From: the human T2T-CHM13v2.0 reference genome, Homo sapiens
Length of the DNA: 64,000 nt
Reading direction: 5' to 3' (one strand)
NCBI RefSeq assembly: GCF_009914755.1
Contig: NC_060941.1
Part shown: positions 5,479 to 27,555 of the stretch, one piece after another
Position numbering within the stretch: position 1 is the first letter of the stretch
How the letters are laid out: every line of letters starts with the position of its first letter
Program-made: the position numbers and the translations under genes
The notes under the pieces: generated by a model
Told to the model about the DNA's origin: nothing
Database searches by the model: none
Seen by the model: only the letters and a program-made list of their open reading frames with translations

Positions 5479-6162
5479 TGAAACAGCCTTTGCAAAATTA
5501 TGACTGAGACAGTGAAAGAGATCTAACTTAACTTACTCCATCTTGCTTCTAACTTCCAAGCTGTCCTTGTTCATTCCCGGGTGTAGGCTGAACTAACTTT
5601 GGGAGAAACTTAGTTTATAATTTAAACAAAGATGGTAACAGCCTTTTCCCAAAGCAGACTTCCTTCTTGTCTGGGGACTAGATTGCCTTTGTAGGACTAA
5701 CATTAGCCACAAGATTAGAAATTATGGTTTAGGAGTCATGCAGCTGGATGCTACAAGATTCTGACCCTTCCTAAACTGCTCCTAAGATCAGTGCTTGACA
5801 TATTTTGCAGACCTTGCACTTGATAGATCAGCTGGCACCACCCAGATCAATAAACTGGCTCATCTGATCTTGTGGTCCCCACCCAGGAACTGACTCAGCA
5901 CAAGAAGACAGCTTTGACTCCCTGTGATTTCTTCCCTGACCAATTAGCACTCCTGGCTCACTGGCTTCCCTTTACTCACCAAGTTATCCTTAACAACTCA
6001 GTTCCTCGAATGCTCCACGAGACTGATTTGAGTAACAATAAAACTCCGGTCTCCTGCACAGCTGGCTCTGCGTGAATTACTCTTTCTCTATTGCAATTCC
6101 CCTGTCTTGATGAATTGGCTCTGTCTAGGCAGCAGGCAAGGTGAACCCCTTGGGTGGTTACA
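5479..6162 (+). mobile_element. Solo ERV1 LTR (LTR8-like) inserted inside an Alu
   Basis: TGAAACAGCCTTTGCAAAATTATGACTGAGAC...GGGTGGTTACA, 684 bp; Alu sequence resumes on both sides; imperfect 4-bp TSD CAAT/CTAT. Confidence 0.8.
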
Positions 6163-6269
6163 CTATTCTCATGCCTCAGCCTCCCAAGTAGCTGGGATTA
6201 CAGGCATGCACCACCTGTACCAGTGTGTACCACCTGTGCACCGGCTTTTTTTTTTTTTTTTTTTTTTGA

Positions 6270-6585
<316 letters not shown>

Positions 6586-6979
6586 TAAATTTATCTGCAC
6601 AGAAAAACTGAACTACAAGGGATGAGGTACTTAACTTCCCACCTGAAGACCCAGGAATTTTTTTTTTTTACTTTTCTTCATTGAGATAGGGTCTCTATCG
6701 CTCAGACAGGAGTGCAGTGGCACAATATTGGCTCATTAAGTCTCCATCTGGGATCAAATGATTTTCCCACCTCAGTCTCCCGAGTAGCTAGCACAGGTGC
6801 GTACCACATCAGTCTGGCTTATTTTTCCACCCTTCCTAGAAACGGTATAAAATACTTAGCGAGCATCTAATTAAAACAGACCGTAACCTAAGAAGACGTA
6901 AGGTCATAACCACAACTCCAAAACCAAACGCGCGCCACTACAACAACTCTGAAAATAAACACACGCAACAACACACAAG

Positions 6980-6992
6980 CCGTCTTTTAAAC
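6980..6992 (-). terminator. snRNA 3' box of U1-like gene A
   Basis: GTTTAAAAGACGG, 16 nt downstream of the predicted 3' end; resembles the GTTT-N-AAA-RNNAGA consensus. Confidence 0.6.
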
Positions 6993-7008
6993 TAGTTCAA
7001 TCACAGGA

Positions 7009-7163
7009 CAGAAAAGCGCAAAAGCAGTCCCCCACTACCACAAGTTATGCAGCCGAGTTTTCTCATTCGGGGAAATCGCGGGAGCAAACACATAGTAAAA
7101 ACCCTCCCCCAAGAAAAACACTTTATCAGGACCAACAGCGTCTCTCCCCCGCCACAAAGACAT
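7009..7163 (-). ncRNA. U1-like variant snRNA gene A (highly diverged 5' half)
   Basis: 3' half aligns with U1 (CGATTTCCCCGAATGAGAAAACTCGGCTGCATAACTTGTGGTAGTGGGGGACTGC); 5' end ATGTCTTTGTGGCGGGGGAGA; PSE, DSE and 3' box at canonical spacing; CpGs retained. Confidence 0.85.
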
Positions 7164-7205
7164 TATTTACTTAATATTGCTAATACCTTACCATCGTCCT
7201 CAACA

Positions 7206-7224
7206 CACAACATACTCATGGCAA
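7206..7224 (-). promoter_or_regulatory. PSE of U1-like gene A
   Basis: TTGCCATGAGTATGTTGTG starting at -61, the same offset as the PSEs of genes B and D. Confidence 0.65.
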
Positions 7225-7350
7225 ATTGTATTATGAGTTGTTTTTAGGCATCGCTTCGAAACTACCGCTTCTTCGTATGACACATCTCAGACTACACCTT
7301 CTTTGGTATTCGCTAGAAAATTTCTCCCGCGAAGAACGCACTAGAACCGG

Positions 7351-7400
7351 CAATCACTGCGCCCCTATCTACATATGCCCGCCTCTTATAGTAACGTCAC
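7351..7400 (-). promoter_or_regulatory. DSE of U1-like gene A (octamer, GC box, CRE-like site)
   Basis: ATGTAGAT at 7367-7374 (the octamer variant of human U1 genes), adjacent GGCGGG and GTGACGTTAC. Confidence 0.75.
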
Positions 7401-7500
7401 CACCTGCTTCTGTACGATCTGACTGAACTCCCTTACGGATCGGTTCGCTCTAGCTGCCGCTCCCAAGGATTCAAAAGAAATCGCATTGTGTGATAAGAAA

Positions 7501-8434
<934 letters not shown>

Positions 8435-9457
8435 TTAGCCCATGTTCTGTCGGTTGCCGTAGCCCCTAGGGTGGGTGTCCTTCCAGTCATCCCACTCTCG
8501 AGCTCTTTGGAGTGTTTGTTCATCATCCTCTTCCTCCTTTTCTTGATCTTCCTGTTGCTGAGTGGCTTTTCTGAATTCTTCTGGTGTTGCCTTGGCTATT
8601 CCCTGATCTGGTAACACTCCATGTTTCTGATGTTGATCATACCAGTCACTCACTGTCATGGAAGCCAGACTTGGATAGCCAGCGCCAAATACTTTGGCTT
8701 GCGCCATGTTCCGAGTGAGAATGAAGGGTTTCATTGGAGGCCTCTTCTGGTGACATGAGTTAGAAGTGGATGCCTCTCTTGAAGAGTCTTTCTCTCCCAG
8801 GATCTTTATTTCCTGATCAATGCTCTCAATCTCTTCTAAGCTGATATCAATCCACCTCTGAAGGTGAAGAAGATAATATTCACGAACACGCTCATTATCT
8901 GCTTGACCACTTTCCACAGCAGATTTCATTGTAGACAACTTATGCTCCAACACCTTCTTCTGCTTGTATCGCTCTATTTTAGCCTGTCTTTGAGATGCCA
9001 TAGCAACGAGGCTAGGATAAGCCGTGGAGGTAATAGCACCGTGATTTTCAGCTGAGTTGGTCTTGGTTTGGGGCAGCTCAAACTCGGCCACACGATAGTA
9101 ATGGCACTGAGTTAAGTATTTTATAAAGTGTTCGCGAGCCTGCTGCAAATGATCTAGACGCTTACGGGGGTTGACTTGTTTCATGGTGAGGGCTCCTTGA
9201 AACGCTGGCACCATCAGGTACTTCAGGTCGGTGGAAGTAATCTCCTCCAAATCTTCATTTCGGCTGAACAAGTCAAGCTGCGATAACATTTTGGCAACCT
9301 TGTCAAGGAGGTCGAGGCCCTTGAACACCTTTTCCTGGACTATTCGGGAACCGGTGGGTTCAGTCGCTCCTTCGACTTCGTCCAGAAGCTGTTTGCTGGA
9401 ATCGAACAGCTCGGGGAGCCGCGGCGGCGGCAGGAACTCGTCTTCAGCAGCTGCCAT
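8435..9457 (-). CDS. IGBP1C: IGBP1/alpha4 (TAP42-family PP2A regulator) retrogene, intronless, 340 aa
   Basis: Uninterrupted [12 protein letters not shown]...[20 protein letters not shown]; good Kozak (AAGATGG); TAP42 motifs [20 protein letters not shown] retained; no introns. Confidence 0.9.
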
Positions 9458-9479
9458 CTTGGGAAGGCTGATGCGAAAT

Positions 9480-9680
9480 GTTGATTCCTTTCCTTTCTGG
9501 ACACACGTAAAGATTCTGGCGTAGATTTCTAACAACCAGTCTGAATCGGGCGCTGCACGGCAGGGCAGTCAGGGAGGCGGTGGCGTTGGGGGCGGCATAG
9601 GGGAAGGCAACGGAGTCGGTTGTGCCGGGTCTGAATCGCTGCTCCACTCCGGGTCTTCGTCAAACTTTGTCTCTCTGTTT
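9480..9680 (-). promoter_or_regulatory. CpG/GC-rich leader of the retrogene with candidate 3' splice sites
   Basis: High CpG density, GGGCGG-type boxes; CTGAC-tgccctgccgtgCAG acceptor (AG at 9554-9553) and gtgtgtcCAG (AG at 9498-9497). Confidence 0.5.
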
Positions 9681-13755: not shown

Positions 13756-14393
13756 CTAGCCACGCGTGGTGGCGGGTGCCTGTATTCCCAGCTCTACTCA
13801 GGAGGCTGAGGCAGGAGAATCGCTTCAACCTAGGAGGCGGAGGTTGCAGTGAGCCGAGATTGTGCCACTCAACTCCAGCCTGGGAGACGGCGAGACTCTG
13901 TCTCAAAAAAAAAAAAAAAAATTGGGTGCCATGGCTCACGCCTGTAATTCCAGCATTTTAGGAGGCTGAAGGTGTGGATCACTTGAGGACAAGAGTTCGA
14001 GACCAGCCTTGCCAACATGGTAAGACGCCATCTCTACTAAAAATGCAAAAATTAGCCAGGCATGGTGGTGCATGCCTGTAATGTAATCCCAGTTTCTAGG
14101 GAAGCTGAGACACGAGAATAGCTCGAACTCGGGAGGTGGAGGCTGCGGTGAGCCGAGATTGCTCCACTGCACTCCAGCCTGGAAAATAGAGCAAGACTGT
14201 GTCCCAAAAAAATAAATAAGGCAAAACCTAAAACAACCAAAGAAGGCTGAGCGCATGAATTCGGATGCCACTGCACTCCAGCCTAGATAAACAAAGTGAA
14301 ACAAACCTTCCACGGCAAAAAAAAAAAAAAAAAAAAAAAAAAAAGCAAAAGCTAATACACAACTAACAAAACTTGCATTTCAACTACCACAAC

Positions 14394-14554
14394 CAGCAGC
14401 AAGTGCGAACGCAATCTCCCGCTACCACAAATTATACACTGTAGTTACCCACATTTGGGGAAATCGTAGGGATCAGCACAAAGTGCAACGAATAAGCCAC
14501 ACACAGGGAAAAACCACCTCCATAATCACAGTATTTCTCCTGACAGGTAATTAT
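14394..14554 (-). ncRNA. U1-like variant snRNA gene B
   Basis: Full-length U1 alignment; 5' ATAATTACCTG (C4A); intact Sm site ATAATTTGTGG; SL4 GCGTTCGC retained; PSE and DSE present. Confidence 0.9.
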
Positions 14555-25429: not shown

Positions 25430-25592
25430 CAGGGGAAAGTGTGAACACAGTCGCCCACTACCACAAATTATGCAGTTGAGTATCCCACATTTGGGGAAAT
25501 CACAGGGGCCAGCAAACACAGAATGCAATGAGTGAACCTTGCCCTGGGAAAACCACCTTTGTGGTCAGGGTATCTTCCCTGCCCGGTAAAGT
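25430..25592 (-). pseudogene. U1-like gene C, probably inactive
   Basis: Full-length U1 alignment; 5' ACTTTACCGGG; canonical U1 CpGs decayed to TG/CA; PSE kept, but the DSE position is occupied by an Alu. Confidence 0.85.
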
Positions 25593-25636
25593 GGAAGGCA
25601 TGGTTGTTGCCTGACATCTCACCCTCAGATTCAAAA

Positions 25637-25655
25637 CACTCTTCACATAGGGTCA
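25637..25655 (-). promoter_or_regulatory. PSE of U1-like gene C
   Basis: TGACCCTATGTGAAGAGTG at -63, close to the RNU1 PSE TGACCGTGTGTGTAAAGAGTG. Confidence 0.7.
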
Positions 25656-25788
25656 CTCTTCTTGCACAAGTTCTAGCCTGCTACTTACAAGATAAAGACT
25701 TTTCCAAAGTTTAAGAGCCAGAAATGGCTGGGCACGGTGGCTCACGCCTGTAATCCCAACACTTTGGGAGGCCAAGGCAGGCAGATCA

Positions 25789-26058
<270 letters not shown>

Positions 26059-27390: not shown

Positions 27391-27555
27391 CAGGGGAGAG
27401 AACCAACATAGTCCCCACTACCACAAATTATGCAATTAAGTTTCCCACATTTGTAGAAAACCACAGGGGTCAGCACATCCACAATGCAAGAGACAAACCT
27501 CACCCTGAAAAATCCACCTTTAATGATCATGTTATTTCCCTTGCCAGTTAAGTAT
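27391..27555 (-). ncRNA. U1-like variant snRNA gene D
   Basis: Full-length 165-nt U1 alignment; 5' ATACTTAACTG (C8A); Sm site intact; PSE, octamer and 3' box all present; internal CpGs decayed. Confidence 0.85.

What the first reader, a model, noticed from the sequence alone, without database searches (positions are those of the whole stretch)
7009..7163. Variant A: U1 chassis with a wholly rewritten 5' guide and lost U1-70K/U1A sites, yet the best-preserved promoter
The 5' end AUGUCUUUGUG cannot pair with GU donors; its complement is CACAAAGACAU. The SL1 loop is GGUCCUGAUA rather than GAUCACGAAG, AUUGCAC is absent from SL2, and the Sm site is ACUUGUG. SL3/SL4, PSE, octamer, GC box, 3' box and many CpGs are retained. 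Divergence concentrated in the specificity half, together with CpG retention, suggests continued transcription and possibly a new guide-RNA role (inference).
Basis: partly seen in the sequence, partly recalled or inferred. Interest (0 to 1): 0.75.

Follow-up and report, generated by a model that had tools for sequence, protein, structure and literature searches.

The report
Eroded U1 gene copy, likely self-mutated
This is a badly decayed extra copy of the U1 spliceosomal RNA gene whose altered "guide" end looks like mutational wear caused by its own transcription rather than a new function.

Summary
The sequence facts hold. Window 7004-7163 (minus strand) is a full-length but strongly diverged U1 copy: Rfam U1 58.8 bits, below the 69.5 cut-off. 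It has a changed 5' arm, a changed SL1 loop, a deleted U1A loop and one U-to-C change in the Sm site.

It is one of four same-strand U1 copies in TEX14 intron 1. The claim of a best-preserved promoter holds only in part:
- The octamer and GC box are intact, and the 3' box is the best of the four copies (10/12).
- The PSE is down to a chance-level match (8/12, null P = 0.36).
- SL3 no longer folds.

Two features stand out. The locus has the highest CpG observed/expected ratio in the window (about 1.2-1.3). Its substitutions are strand-asymmetric: 21 raise sense-strand G+T and 6 lower it, against 65:64 in 13 dispersed U1 pseudogenes. The G+T skew starts near the start site and lasts about 300 bp.

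This matches the published hypermutability of Pol II snRNA genes. I read the locus as a promoter-bearing, unconstrained U1 relic eroded by its own germline transcription. I found no evidence for a new guide-RNA role. Primate conservation and expression could not be tested here.

The parts
7004..7163 (-). U1-homologous body (RefSeq LOC124904122 spans 7007-7163). It is 70.6% identical to canonical U1 over 170 aligned columns.
7153..7163 (-). Altered 5' arm, ATGTCTTTGTG. It matches canonical U1 at 5 of 11 positions without gaps, or 7 identical / 3 mismatched / 2 gap columns with gaps.
7124..7133 (-). Enlarged and changed SL1 loop, where U1-70K binds in canonical U1. The SL1 stem itself still forms: 11 bp, of which 4 are G.U.
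7038..7046 (-). Sm-site homologue AACTTGTGG, with one U-to-C change relative to the canonical sequence in L007.
7207..7224 (-). PSE homologue at -61..-44, TTGCCATGAGTATGTTGT. It scores 8/12 against the published consensus, which is chance level.
   Evidence: Consensus taken from PMC5493778.
7351..7400 (-). DSE-like block: CRE-like TGACGTTAC, GC box GAGGCGGGCA (7376-7385) and the U1-type octamer TATGTAGAT (7367-7375).
   Evidence: The alignment contains the motif in the 1p36 rows and in the A, RNVU1-34 and RNU1-108P rows; the chr14 and chr1q rows each carry one change.
6979..6992 (-). 3' box-like GTTTAAAAGACGGC, 12 nt past the homologous 3' end. It scores 10/12 (null P = 0.046).
6835..7003 (-). 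G+T-rich, C-poor downstream flank. I take it to be the read-through part of the snRNA-type transcription unit. It ends at an Alu.
6800..7500 (.). Low-GC block with high CpG observed/expected: 0.83-1.57 in the 100-bp bins from -300 to +300, and up to 1.30 in 300-bp windows, the highest in the window. This is read as long-term germline hypomethylation.

Best explanation
Variant A is a DNA-duplicated U1 gene copy that carries its own promoter. It is one of four same-strand copies in TEX14 intron 1 and no longer makes a working U1.

Its enhancer part (octamer and GC box) and its 3' box survive, and the locus has stayed unmethylated in the germline.

Inferred: it has been transcribed from its own start site for a long time with no selection on the RNA. 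Transcription-associated hypermutation of the exposed non-template strand (C>T, C>G, A>G, A>T on the RNA-sense strand), plus two loop indels, then rewrote the 5' arm and destroyed the U1-70K and U1A sites.

Many stems survive only as G.U wobbles, because C>U and A>G are exactly the changes that turn G-C and A-U pairs into G.U.

Any RNA still made is expected to be short-lived, degraded by the nuclear exosome, and without a guide function.
For: - Family and divergence (shown). Full-length U1 homology at 58.8 bits, against 175.1 for true genes. Flank homology to true U1 genes has the DSE, PSE position and 3' box at the correct distances.
- CpG (shown). CpG observed/expected of 1.2-1.3 in 300-bp windows at 7051-7550 is the highest in the window, above the TEX14/RAD51C CpG island at about 1.0-1.07. 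The body has 7 CpGs (3 ancestral, 4 new). Neighbours RNVU1-34 and RNU1-52P have 0 and 2. In 13 dispersed U1 pseudogenes, 55 of 150 substitutions are CpG transitions; in A, 2 of 31.
- Strand asymmetry (shown). In A, 21 substitutions raise sense G+T and 6 lower it (binomial P = 0.006). The dispersed controls give 65:64 (Fisher P = 0.011). RNU1-108P gives 18:7 and RNVU1-34 gives 18:7. RNU1-52P, whose upstream is interrupted by an Alu and whose CpGs have decayed, gives 9:11. The three asymmetric copies pooled give 57:20 against 65:64, P = 0.0012.
- Position of the skew (shown). In 50-bp bins the skew jumps at -50 and lasts to +300. Only 9 of 790 300-bp windows in the TEX14 intron reach 0.3. The nine highest windows lie by A or RNU1-108P.
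- Literature.
  - Active Pol II snRNA genes are hypermutable in primates, with non-CpG C>T biased to the non-transcribed strand (bioRxiv 10.64898/2026.10.12.758683; abstract, section 7 and passages read).
  - Pol II runs a few hundred bp past the 3' box (PMC5493778, passages).
  - Neighbour RNU1-108P overlaps a cCRE and H1 H3K27ac and is hypermutable, observed/expected 2.46 (PMC13083260 Supplementary Table 1). It is also ranked a high-confidence gene-like pseudogene (PMC13640761, passages).
  - Far less diverged U1 variants have half-lives under 10 min (PMC7328512, passages).
Against: - There are no expression, Pol II, methylation or population-variant data for A itself. It has no row in the held text of the Ensembl-based table of PMC13083260.
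- The PSE match is at chance level (8/12), so present-day snRNA-type initiation is doubtful.
- The transition-only asymmetry in A alone is weak: 12:5, P = 0.14.
- None of the 9 C>T changes lies in a TCW context, so the APOBEC3A/B motif reported for active genes is not seen. Numbers are small.
- True U1 genes also have a G+T-rich +200..+300 flank, skew 0.24-0.36. Part of the downstream skew may therefore be inherited.
- The TEX14 host transcript runs on the same strand. Its intron-wide skew is small but positive, 0.034.
- The asymmetry could date from a past active phase rather than from continued transcription.
Confidence: 0.6

Rival explanations
1. Silent pseudogene inside an enhancer. The U1 copy is transcriptionally dead. 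The CpG-rich, unmethylated state reflects the old DSE, or the surrounding element, working as an enhancer or some other regulatory element. The strand asymmetry comes from TEX14 host transcription, an inherited G+T-rich flank, or chance.
For: - The hub annotation lists RefSeq enhancers at 6433-7203 and 5749-6301 (given with the finding, not checked here).
- The PSE is at chance level.
- TEX14 is transcribed on the same strand, and the intron has a small positive skew of 0.034.
- True U1 flanks are also G+T-rich at +200..+300.
Against: - RNU1-52P lies in the same intron on the same strand and shows no asymmetry, 9:11.
- The skew starts at the U1 start site and ends about 300 bp downstream. That is the published reach of snRNA transcription (PMC5493778).
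- Within the body the ancestral state is known, and the shift from skew 0.098 to 0.338 is due to substitutions.
Confidence: 0.3
2. Neo-functional U1-derived guide RNA. The locus makes a stable small RNA whose new 5' arm pairs with non-splice-site targets.
For: - An snRNA-type layout is kept: DSE, 3' box at 10/12, and correct spacing.
- The SL1 stem is stable: -10.6 kcal/mol, z = -2.5.
- The Sm region differs by only one base.
- One pair at the base of SL2 changed on both sides and stayed paired.
- Known U1-like RNAs without 5' splice-site complementarity are reported as expressed. This is cited from passages of PMC3561869; the original paper is not held.
Against: - The whole-RNA fold has z = 0.07, against -1.90 for canonical U1.
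- SL2, SL3 and SL4 are weakened.
- The covariation term over the five copies is only -0.64 kcal/mol.
- The 5'-arm changes are of the same types as the bulk mutation spectrum.
- The excess divergence in the 5' half comes from loop indels, not substitutions.
- Mildly variant U1s are already unstable.
- The neighbours show almost no small-RNA signal in embryonic brain.
- Searches for the locus name found nothing in print.
Confidence: 0.04

Closest known systems
Canonical U1 snRNA genes (RNU1-1 to -4, 1p36; Rfam RF00003)
   Same: Homologous over the full length. Same gene layout: octamer plus GC-box enhancer at about -210, a PSE-homologous site at -61..-44, and a 3' box about 12 nt past the 3' end.
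   Different: - 58.8 bits against 175.1.
- 5' splice-site arm changed.
- U1-70K loop changed and U1A loop deleted.
- One change in the Sm site.
- SL3 no longer folds.
- PSE at 8/12 against 10/12.
Variant U1 (vU1 / RNVU1) genes, formerly class I U1 pseudogenes at 1q12-21 (O'Reilly et al. 2013, PMC3561869; passages read)
   Same: DNA-mediated copy with flank homology and recognisable promoter and 3' box elements. Base changes lie in the 5' arm and the protein-binding loops. vU1.8 also lacks the U1A site.
   Different: It lies on chromosome 17, not chromosome 1. It is far more diverged: about 30% against a few changes. Expression is untested, and it is absent from the Ensembl-based list examined.
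Hypermutable Pol II-transcribed snRNA genes (Seplyarskiy 2023, as cited in PMC13083260; Xue et al. 2026 bioRxiv)
   Same: Sense-strand (non-transcribed strand) excess of C>T and C>G, starting at the start site. The local neighbour RNU1-108P is listed as hypermutable, observed/expected 2.46.
   Different: In true genes selection removes the mutations. Here they appear to have been fixed, so the RNA itself has eroded. No TCW enrichment is seen (0 of 9 C>T). Population-level hypermutability of A was not tested.
[quoted passage not shown] 2006)
   Same: U1-derived sequence whose 5' end cannot pair with a GU donor.
   Different: Those RNAs were isolated from cells with caps and Sm proteins. That detail is recalled and seen only as a citation in PMC3561869; the paper is not held. 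A has no RNA-level evidence at all.

Membership tests
U1 spliceosomal RNA (RF00003), functional U1 snRNP RNA | Score at or above Rfam's gathering cut-off (69.5 bits) | tested here: not met
   58.8 bits, E = 1e-13, full-length match. True genes score 175.1.
U1 spliceosomal RNA (RF00003), functional U1 snRNP RNA | 5' arm complementary to the GU donor consensus | tested here: not met
   Only 5 of 11 positions match canonical U1 without gaps.
U1 spliceosomal RNA (RF00003), functional U1 snRNP RNA | SL1 loop (U1-70K site) and SL2 loop with AUUGCAC (U1A site) | tested here: not met
   The SL1 loop is enlarged and changed. The SL2 loop has a 10-11-nt deletion and ATTGCAC is absent.
U1 spliceosomal RNA (RF00003), functional U1 snRNP RNA | Intact Sm site followed by SL4 | tested here: inconclusive
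   There is one U-to-C change in the Sm heptad. SL4 folds at -6.5 kcal/mol against -13.8. Sm binding cannot be tested here.
U1 spliceosomal RNA (RF00003), functional U1 snRNP RNA | Four-arm fold that is thermodynamically distinct | tested here: not met
   Whole-RNA z = 0.07 against -1.90 for canonical. SL3 alone gives z = 0.23.
Pol II snRNA-type gene (DSE + PSE + 3' box) | Octamer and Sp1 enhancer about 200 bp upstream | tested here: met
   TATGTAGAT at -212..-204, the same 9-mer as in the 1p36 genes, with a GC box next to it.
Pol II snRNA-type gene (DSE + PSE + 3' box) | PSE matching TCACCNTNA(G/C)NNNAA(A/T)(G/A)N near -55 | tested here: inconclusive
   8/12 at the homologous position. A random 50-nt window reaches 8 or more in 36% of cases.
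Pol II snRNA-type gene (DSE + PSE + 3' box) | 3' box GTTYN0-3AARRYAGA shortly after the 3' end | tested here: met
   10/12 at +12, null P = 0.046. True genes score 12/12.
Variant U1 (vU1) genes | Transcribed, capped and processed RNA detected | not testable with these tools
   No expression data are available for this locus. It has no row in the held text of PMC13083260 Supplementary Table 1.
Hypermutable active Pol II snRNA genes | C>T (and C>G) excess on the non-transcribed strand | tested here: met
   Fixed substitutions on the sense strand: non-CpG C>T 7 against G>A 3; C>G 4 against G>C 1. All G+T-raising against G+T-lowering changes are 21:6, compared with 65:64 in controls.
Hypermutable active Pol II snRNA genes | Excess of rare or de novo variants, and TCW enrichment | tested here: inconclusive
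   0 of 9 C>T changes lie at TCW (few such sites exist). Variant density cannot be tested here.

The most novel reading that the evidence does not exclude
The locus is still fired from its snRNA-type promoter in germline or early embryonic cells and yields a capped, U1-derived small RNA. Its rewritten 5' arm, kept single-stranded next to a stable SL1, would pair with non-splice-site targets. That would make it a new guide RNA born from a U1 gene through self-inflicted hypermutation.
Probability: 0.04. Interest if true: 0.75.

Novelty: new member of a known kind. Interest (0 to 1): 0.3.

Why it matters
As a splicing RNA the locus is ordinary: a decayed U1 copy. Its value is as a natural record of a mutational process. 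Hypermutability of active snRNA genes has so far been shown mainly with rare variants, in genes where selection removes the damage. A copy that keeps an open promoter but has lost all constraint shows what that process does when left to run. The result is a C-poor, G+T-rich sense strand, CpGs at equilibrium, and stems surviving as G.U wobbles. The case also warns that a rewritten guide in an snRNA paralogue need not signal new function. Finally, it flags the little-studied chromosome 17 U1 cluster, where RNU1-108P is already ranked gene-like in print, for expression and population-variant checks.

Tried and rejected
- **Primate or mammalian orthologues.** No non-human eukaryote genome is held; the genome search states the window's genome has no relatives here. 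Conservation of the 5' arm was therefore not tested.
- **Papers not held.** Kyriakopoulou 2006 and Seplyarskiy 2023. Both are used only as cited by other papers. bioRxiv supplements are closed, so the gene lists of Xue et al. were not seen.
- **Searches for the locus or cluster in print.**
  - The four local gene names: LOC124904122 has 0 occurrences; 3 papers hold at least one neighbour name, 2 listed.
  - The same names searched inside words: 3 papers hold a term, 2 listed.
  - snRNA + TEX14 + RAD51C: 2 papers listed; judging by title and abstract start, neither concerns U1.
  - Rnu1a1/Tex14 and mouse chromosome 11 synteny: nothing relevant among the listed papers.
  - O'Reilly 2013, Mabin 2021, Kosmyna 2020 and the Cancer Sci 2025 paper contain no chromosome 17 U1 in the passages searched.
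- **Idea that the cluster is the remnant of an ancestral mammalian U1 locus.** From memory, mouse adult-type U1 genes map to chromosome 11, which is syntenic with human 17q. No call tested this and it stays an untested lead.
- **Second copy of A's sequence in the genome.** None found; the other matches cover only the 3' half (query 388-471) at 77-88% identity.
- **Compensatory changes as evidence of selection.** Rejected. Over five sequences, 6 of 43 predicted pairs have a double change in at least one sequence, and the covariation term is -0.64 kcal/mol. The dominant C>U and A>G changes keep pairs as G.U without any selection.
- **GC-biased gene conversion as the cause of CpG retention.** Rejected. 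Body G+C is 0.50. T>C (2) is rarer than A>G (5), and C>T (9) is the commonest change.
- **Search for targets of the 11-mer complement.** Not run. An 11-mer is too short to be informative in 3.1 Gb without crosslinking data.

Full report
**What is there**

On the minus strand, window 7163 down to 7004 is a full-length homologue of U1 snRNA.
- Rfam's U1 model matches 7007-7163 end to end (model 1-166) at 58.8 bits, E = 1e-13. That is below the family's gathering score of 69.5, so the default scan does not list it.
- The three other U1 matches in the window all lie on the minus strand and all pass the cut-off: 25430-25593 at 112.6 bits, 27392-27555 at 101.4 and 14396-14554 at 72.9.
- A permissive scan of the whole window gave 274 matches, of which 150 were listed. 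The only U1 matches among them are these four; the rest are Alu-derived look-alikes.
- Genuine U1 genes in the same genome score 175.1 bits. They share one 164-nt sequence in 7 loci, which I used as the ancestral reference.

All the literal statements are correct:
- The 5' end is ATGTCTTTGTG.
- The SL1 loop region is GGTCCTGATA.
- ATTGCAC is absent, because about 10-11 nt of the SL2 loop are deleted.
- The Sm region reads AACTTGTGG, one U-to-C change.

Overall, 120 of 170 aligned columns are identical to canonical U1 (70.6%). The neighbours reach 78.8%, 84.2% and 79.5%. A BLAST search of the whole genome with A plus its flanks finds no second copy. Other U1 loci match only the 3' half, at 77-88% identity.

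**Where the description is too generous**

Aligning A with its flanks to 1p36 genes shows that the gene layout is homologous. There is a CRE-like site, a GC box and the U1-type octamer TATGTAGAT at about -210; a PSE-homologous site at -61..-44; and a 3' box-like element 12 nt past the 3' end.

I scored these against the consensus sequences printed in PMC5493778:
- The 3' box is 10/12. Random 40-mers reach this in 4.6% of cases, and it is the best of the four local copies.
- The PSE is 8/12. Random 50-nt windows reach this in 36% of cases. True genes score 10/12 at the same place, and RNU1-52P scores 9/12.
- Upstream identity to a true gene is 118/285 for A, 119/261 for RNVU1-34 and 105/256 for RNU1-108P.

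So "best-preserved promoter" holds for the enhancer motifs, the 3' box and the CpGs, but not for the core promoter.

The description of the arms is also too generous:
- SL3 and SL4 look retained by identity (22/26 and 20/26). Folded alone, however, SL3 gives -1.5 kcal/mol (z = 0.23) against -8.3 for canonical, and SL4 gives -6.5 against -13.8.
- SL2 is truncated: -8.5 against -16.3.
- Only SL1 is still a good hairpin: -10.6, z = -2.5, 11 bp of which 4 are G.U.
- The whole RNA folds no better than shuffles, z = 0.07, against -1.90 for canonical U1.

The claim that divergence is concentrated in the 5' half depends on gap columns. Counting them gives 38/97 against 12/73 non-identical columns, P = 0.0013. 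With substitutions alone it is 20/79 against 11/72, P = 0.16. The excess is mostly two loop indels.

**Two features that are not ordinary for a pseudogene**

*CpG content.* In 300-bp windows, the highest CpG observed/expected values of the whole 64-kb window lie at 7051-7550 (1.2-1.3). That is above the TEX14/RAD51C CpG island at about 40.2-40.6 kb (about 1.0-1.07). G+C, however, is only 41-46%, so it is not a classical island.
- The body has 7 CpGs: 3 of the 8 ancestral ones plus 4 new ones.
- RNVU1-34 has 0 and RNU1-52P has 2.
- In 13 dispersed U1 pseudogenes, 55 of 150 substitutions are CpG transitions; in A, 2 of 31 are.
- CpGs that are gained as often as they are lost point to long-term absence of germline methylation. 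This is an inference.

*Strand asymmetry.* Relative to the canonical sequence, 21 substitutions raise G+T on the RNA-sense strand (C>T 9, A>G 5, C>G 4, A>T 3) and 6 lower it. The binomial P is 0.006, and the body skew rises from 0.098 to 0.338.
- The pooled dispersed pseudogenes give 65:64 (Fisher P = 0.011 for A against controls).
- RNU1-108P gives 18:7 and RNVU1-34 gives 18:7.
- RNU1-52P gives 9:11. It lies in the same intron and orientation, but an Alu interrupts its upstream region and its CpGs have decayed.
- The three asymmetric copies pooled give 57:20 against 65:64, P = 0.0012.
- In 50-bp bins the skew jumps at -50 and lasts to about +300, where an Alu begins.
- Within the TEX14 intron part of the window, the mean for 300-bp windows is 0.034 (SD 0.097), and only 9 of 790 windows reach 0.3. 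The nine highest all lie next to A or RNU1-108P.

**What this most likely means**

The pattern matches what has been published for active Pol II snRNA genes.
- They are hypermutable in the human germline. PMC13083260 says so, citing Seplyarskiy 2023 (passages).
- In primates the non-CpG C>T changes, and marginally the C>G changes, are biased to the non-transcribed strand. APOBEC3B-associated single-stranded DNA rises at the start site and stays raised across the gene body (Xue et al., bioRxiv 10.64898/2026.10.12.758683; abstract, section 7 and passages).
- Pol II runs a few hundred bp past the 3' box (PMC5493778).
- In Supplementary Table 1 of PMC13083260, neighbour RNU1-108P overlaps an ENCODE cCRE and H1 H3K27ac and is hypermutable (observed/expected 2.46). 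RNVU1-34 overlaps a cCRE and H3K27ac. RNU1-52P overlaps only H3K27ac. All three have almost no small-RNA signal in embryonic brain.
- A itself has no row in the held text of that table near its estimated hg38 position. Searches for its name found nothing.

My reading is as follows. A is a promoter-bearing U1 copy that lost selection on its RNA but kept an open, unmethylated and probably transcribed state. It has been eroded by transcription-associated mutation of its own non-template strand. Because C>U and A>G convert G-C and A-U pairs into G.U, the stems partly survive without any selection. The Rfam alignment of SL1 shows 11 pairs, which I read by eye as about 5 G.U wobbles; folding that arm alone gives 4 G.U among 11 pairs. 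The "rewritten guide" is then a by-product, since the changes in positions 3-9 are of the same types as the bulk spectrum.

Any RNA made today should be unstable. U1 variants with only a few changes have half-lives under 10 min and are exosome targets, and Sm-site changes trigger decay (PMC7328512, passages).

**What speaks against this reading, and the rivals**

- There are no direct data on expression, methylation or variants for A.
- The PSE is at chance level.
- The transition-only asymmetry in A alone is 12:5, P = 0.14.
- None of the 9 C>T changes is at a TCW site.
- True U1 genes also have a G+T-rich flank at +200..+300.
- The host gene runs on the same strand.

A silent pseudogene sitting inside an enhancer therefore remains a serious rival; I give it 0.3. 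A real guide-RNA function is not excluded, but nothing I could compute supports it; I give it 0.04.

**Comparison, novelty and verdict**

A works like, and descends from, a Pol II snRNA gene. It is not a member of functional U1 by the tests I ran: score, 5' arm, both protein-binding loops and fold all fail. It resembles the vU1 genes of 1q21 in kind, but it lies on chromosome 17, is far more diverged and is untested for expression.

It is a new member of a known kind. Its modest interest lies in being a possible natural mutation-accumulation record of snRNA-gene hypermutation, and in drawing attention to the chromosome 17 U1 cluster.

Noticed in passing
window 14101-14554 (RNU1-108P and its downstream flank): This stretch has the strongest sense-strand G+T skew of the whole window, up to 0.41 in 300-bp windows. 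The body keeps 5 CpGs and its substitutions are asymmetric, 18:7. Two recent papers list the locus as hypermutable (observed/expected 2.46), overlapping a cCRE and H3K27ac, and 'gene-like'. An Alu at 14055-14207 overlaps the far end of the skewed stretch.
   Followed up: partly
window 25430-25910 (RNU1-52P): This is the best-scoring U1 body of the cluster (112.6 bits) and has the best PSE match (9/12). Its upstream region is interrupted by Alu sequence, only 2 of 8 CpGs remain, and its substitutions are strand-symmetric (9:11). It serves as an internal contrast to A.
   Followed up: partly
window 27392-27555 (RNVU1-34): HGNC names it a variant U1 gene. It has lost all 8 ancestral CpGs, it has one change in the 5' arm (ACTTAACT), and its best PSE match is off-position. 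It shares derived promoter bases with A next to the octamer (GCGCAGTGA.TGC), which suggests a common local ancestor.
   Followed up: partly
L051:1494-1689, minus strand (about 27 kb below the window start; hub-listed LOC124904154): This is a U3 snoRNA-like copy: Rfam U3 78.3 bits against a cut-off of 34, with an internal deletion of one stem. It lies on the same strand as the U1 cluster inside TEX14, so a second Pol II snRNA-type gene relic sits in the same host gene.
   Followed up: partly
window 9250-9650: This is a second CpG-rich stretch, observed/expected about 0.9-1.0 with 19-24 CpGs per 300 bp. It lies inside the IGBP1C retrogene exon, about 2 kb from A.
   Followed up: no
whole window: Many sub-threshold Rfam hits to Metazoa_SRP, mir-1268, mir-3135 and mir-1972 are listed. 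I take them to be Alu elements, not RNA genes.
   Followed up: no
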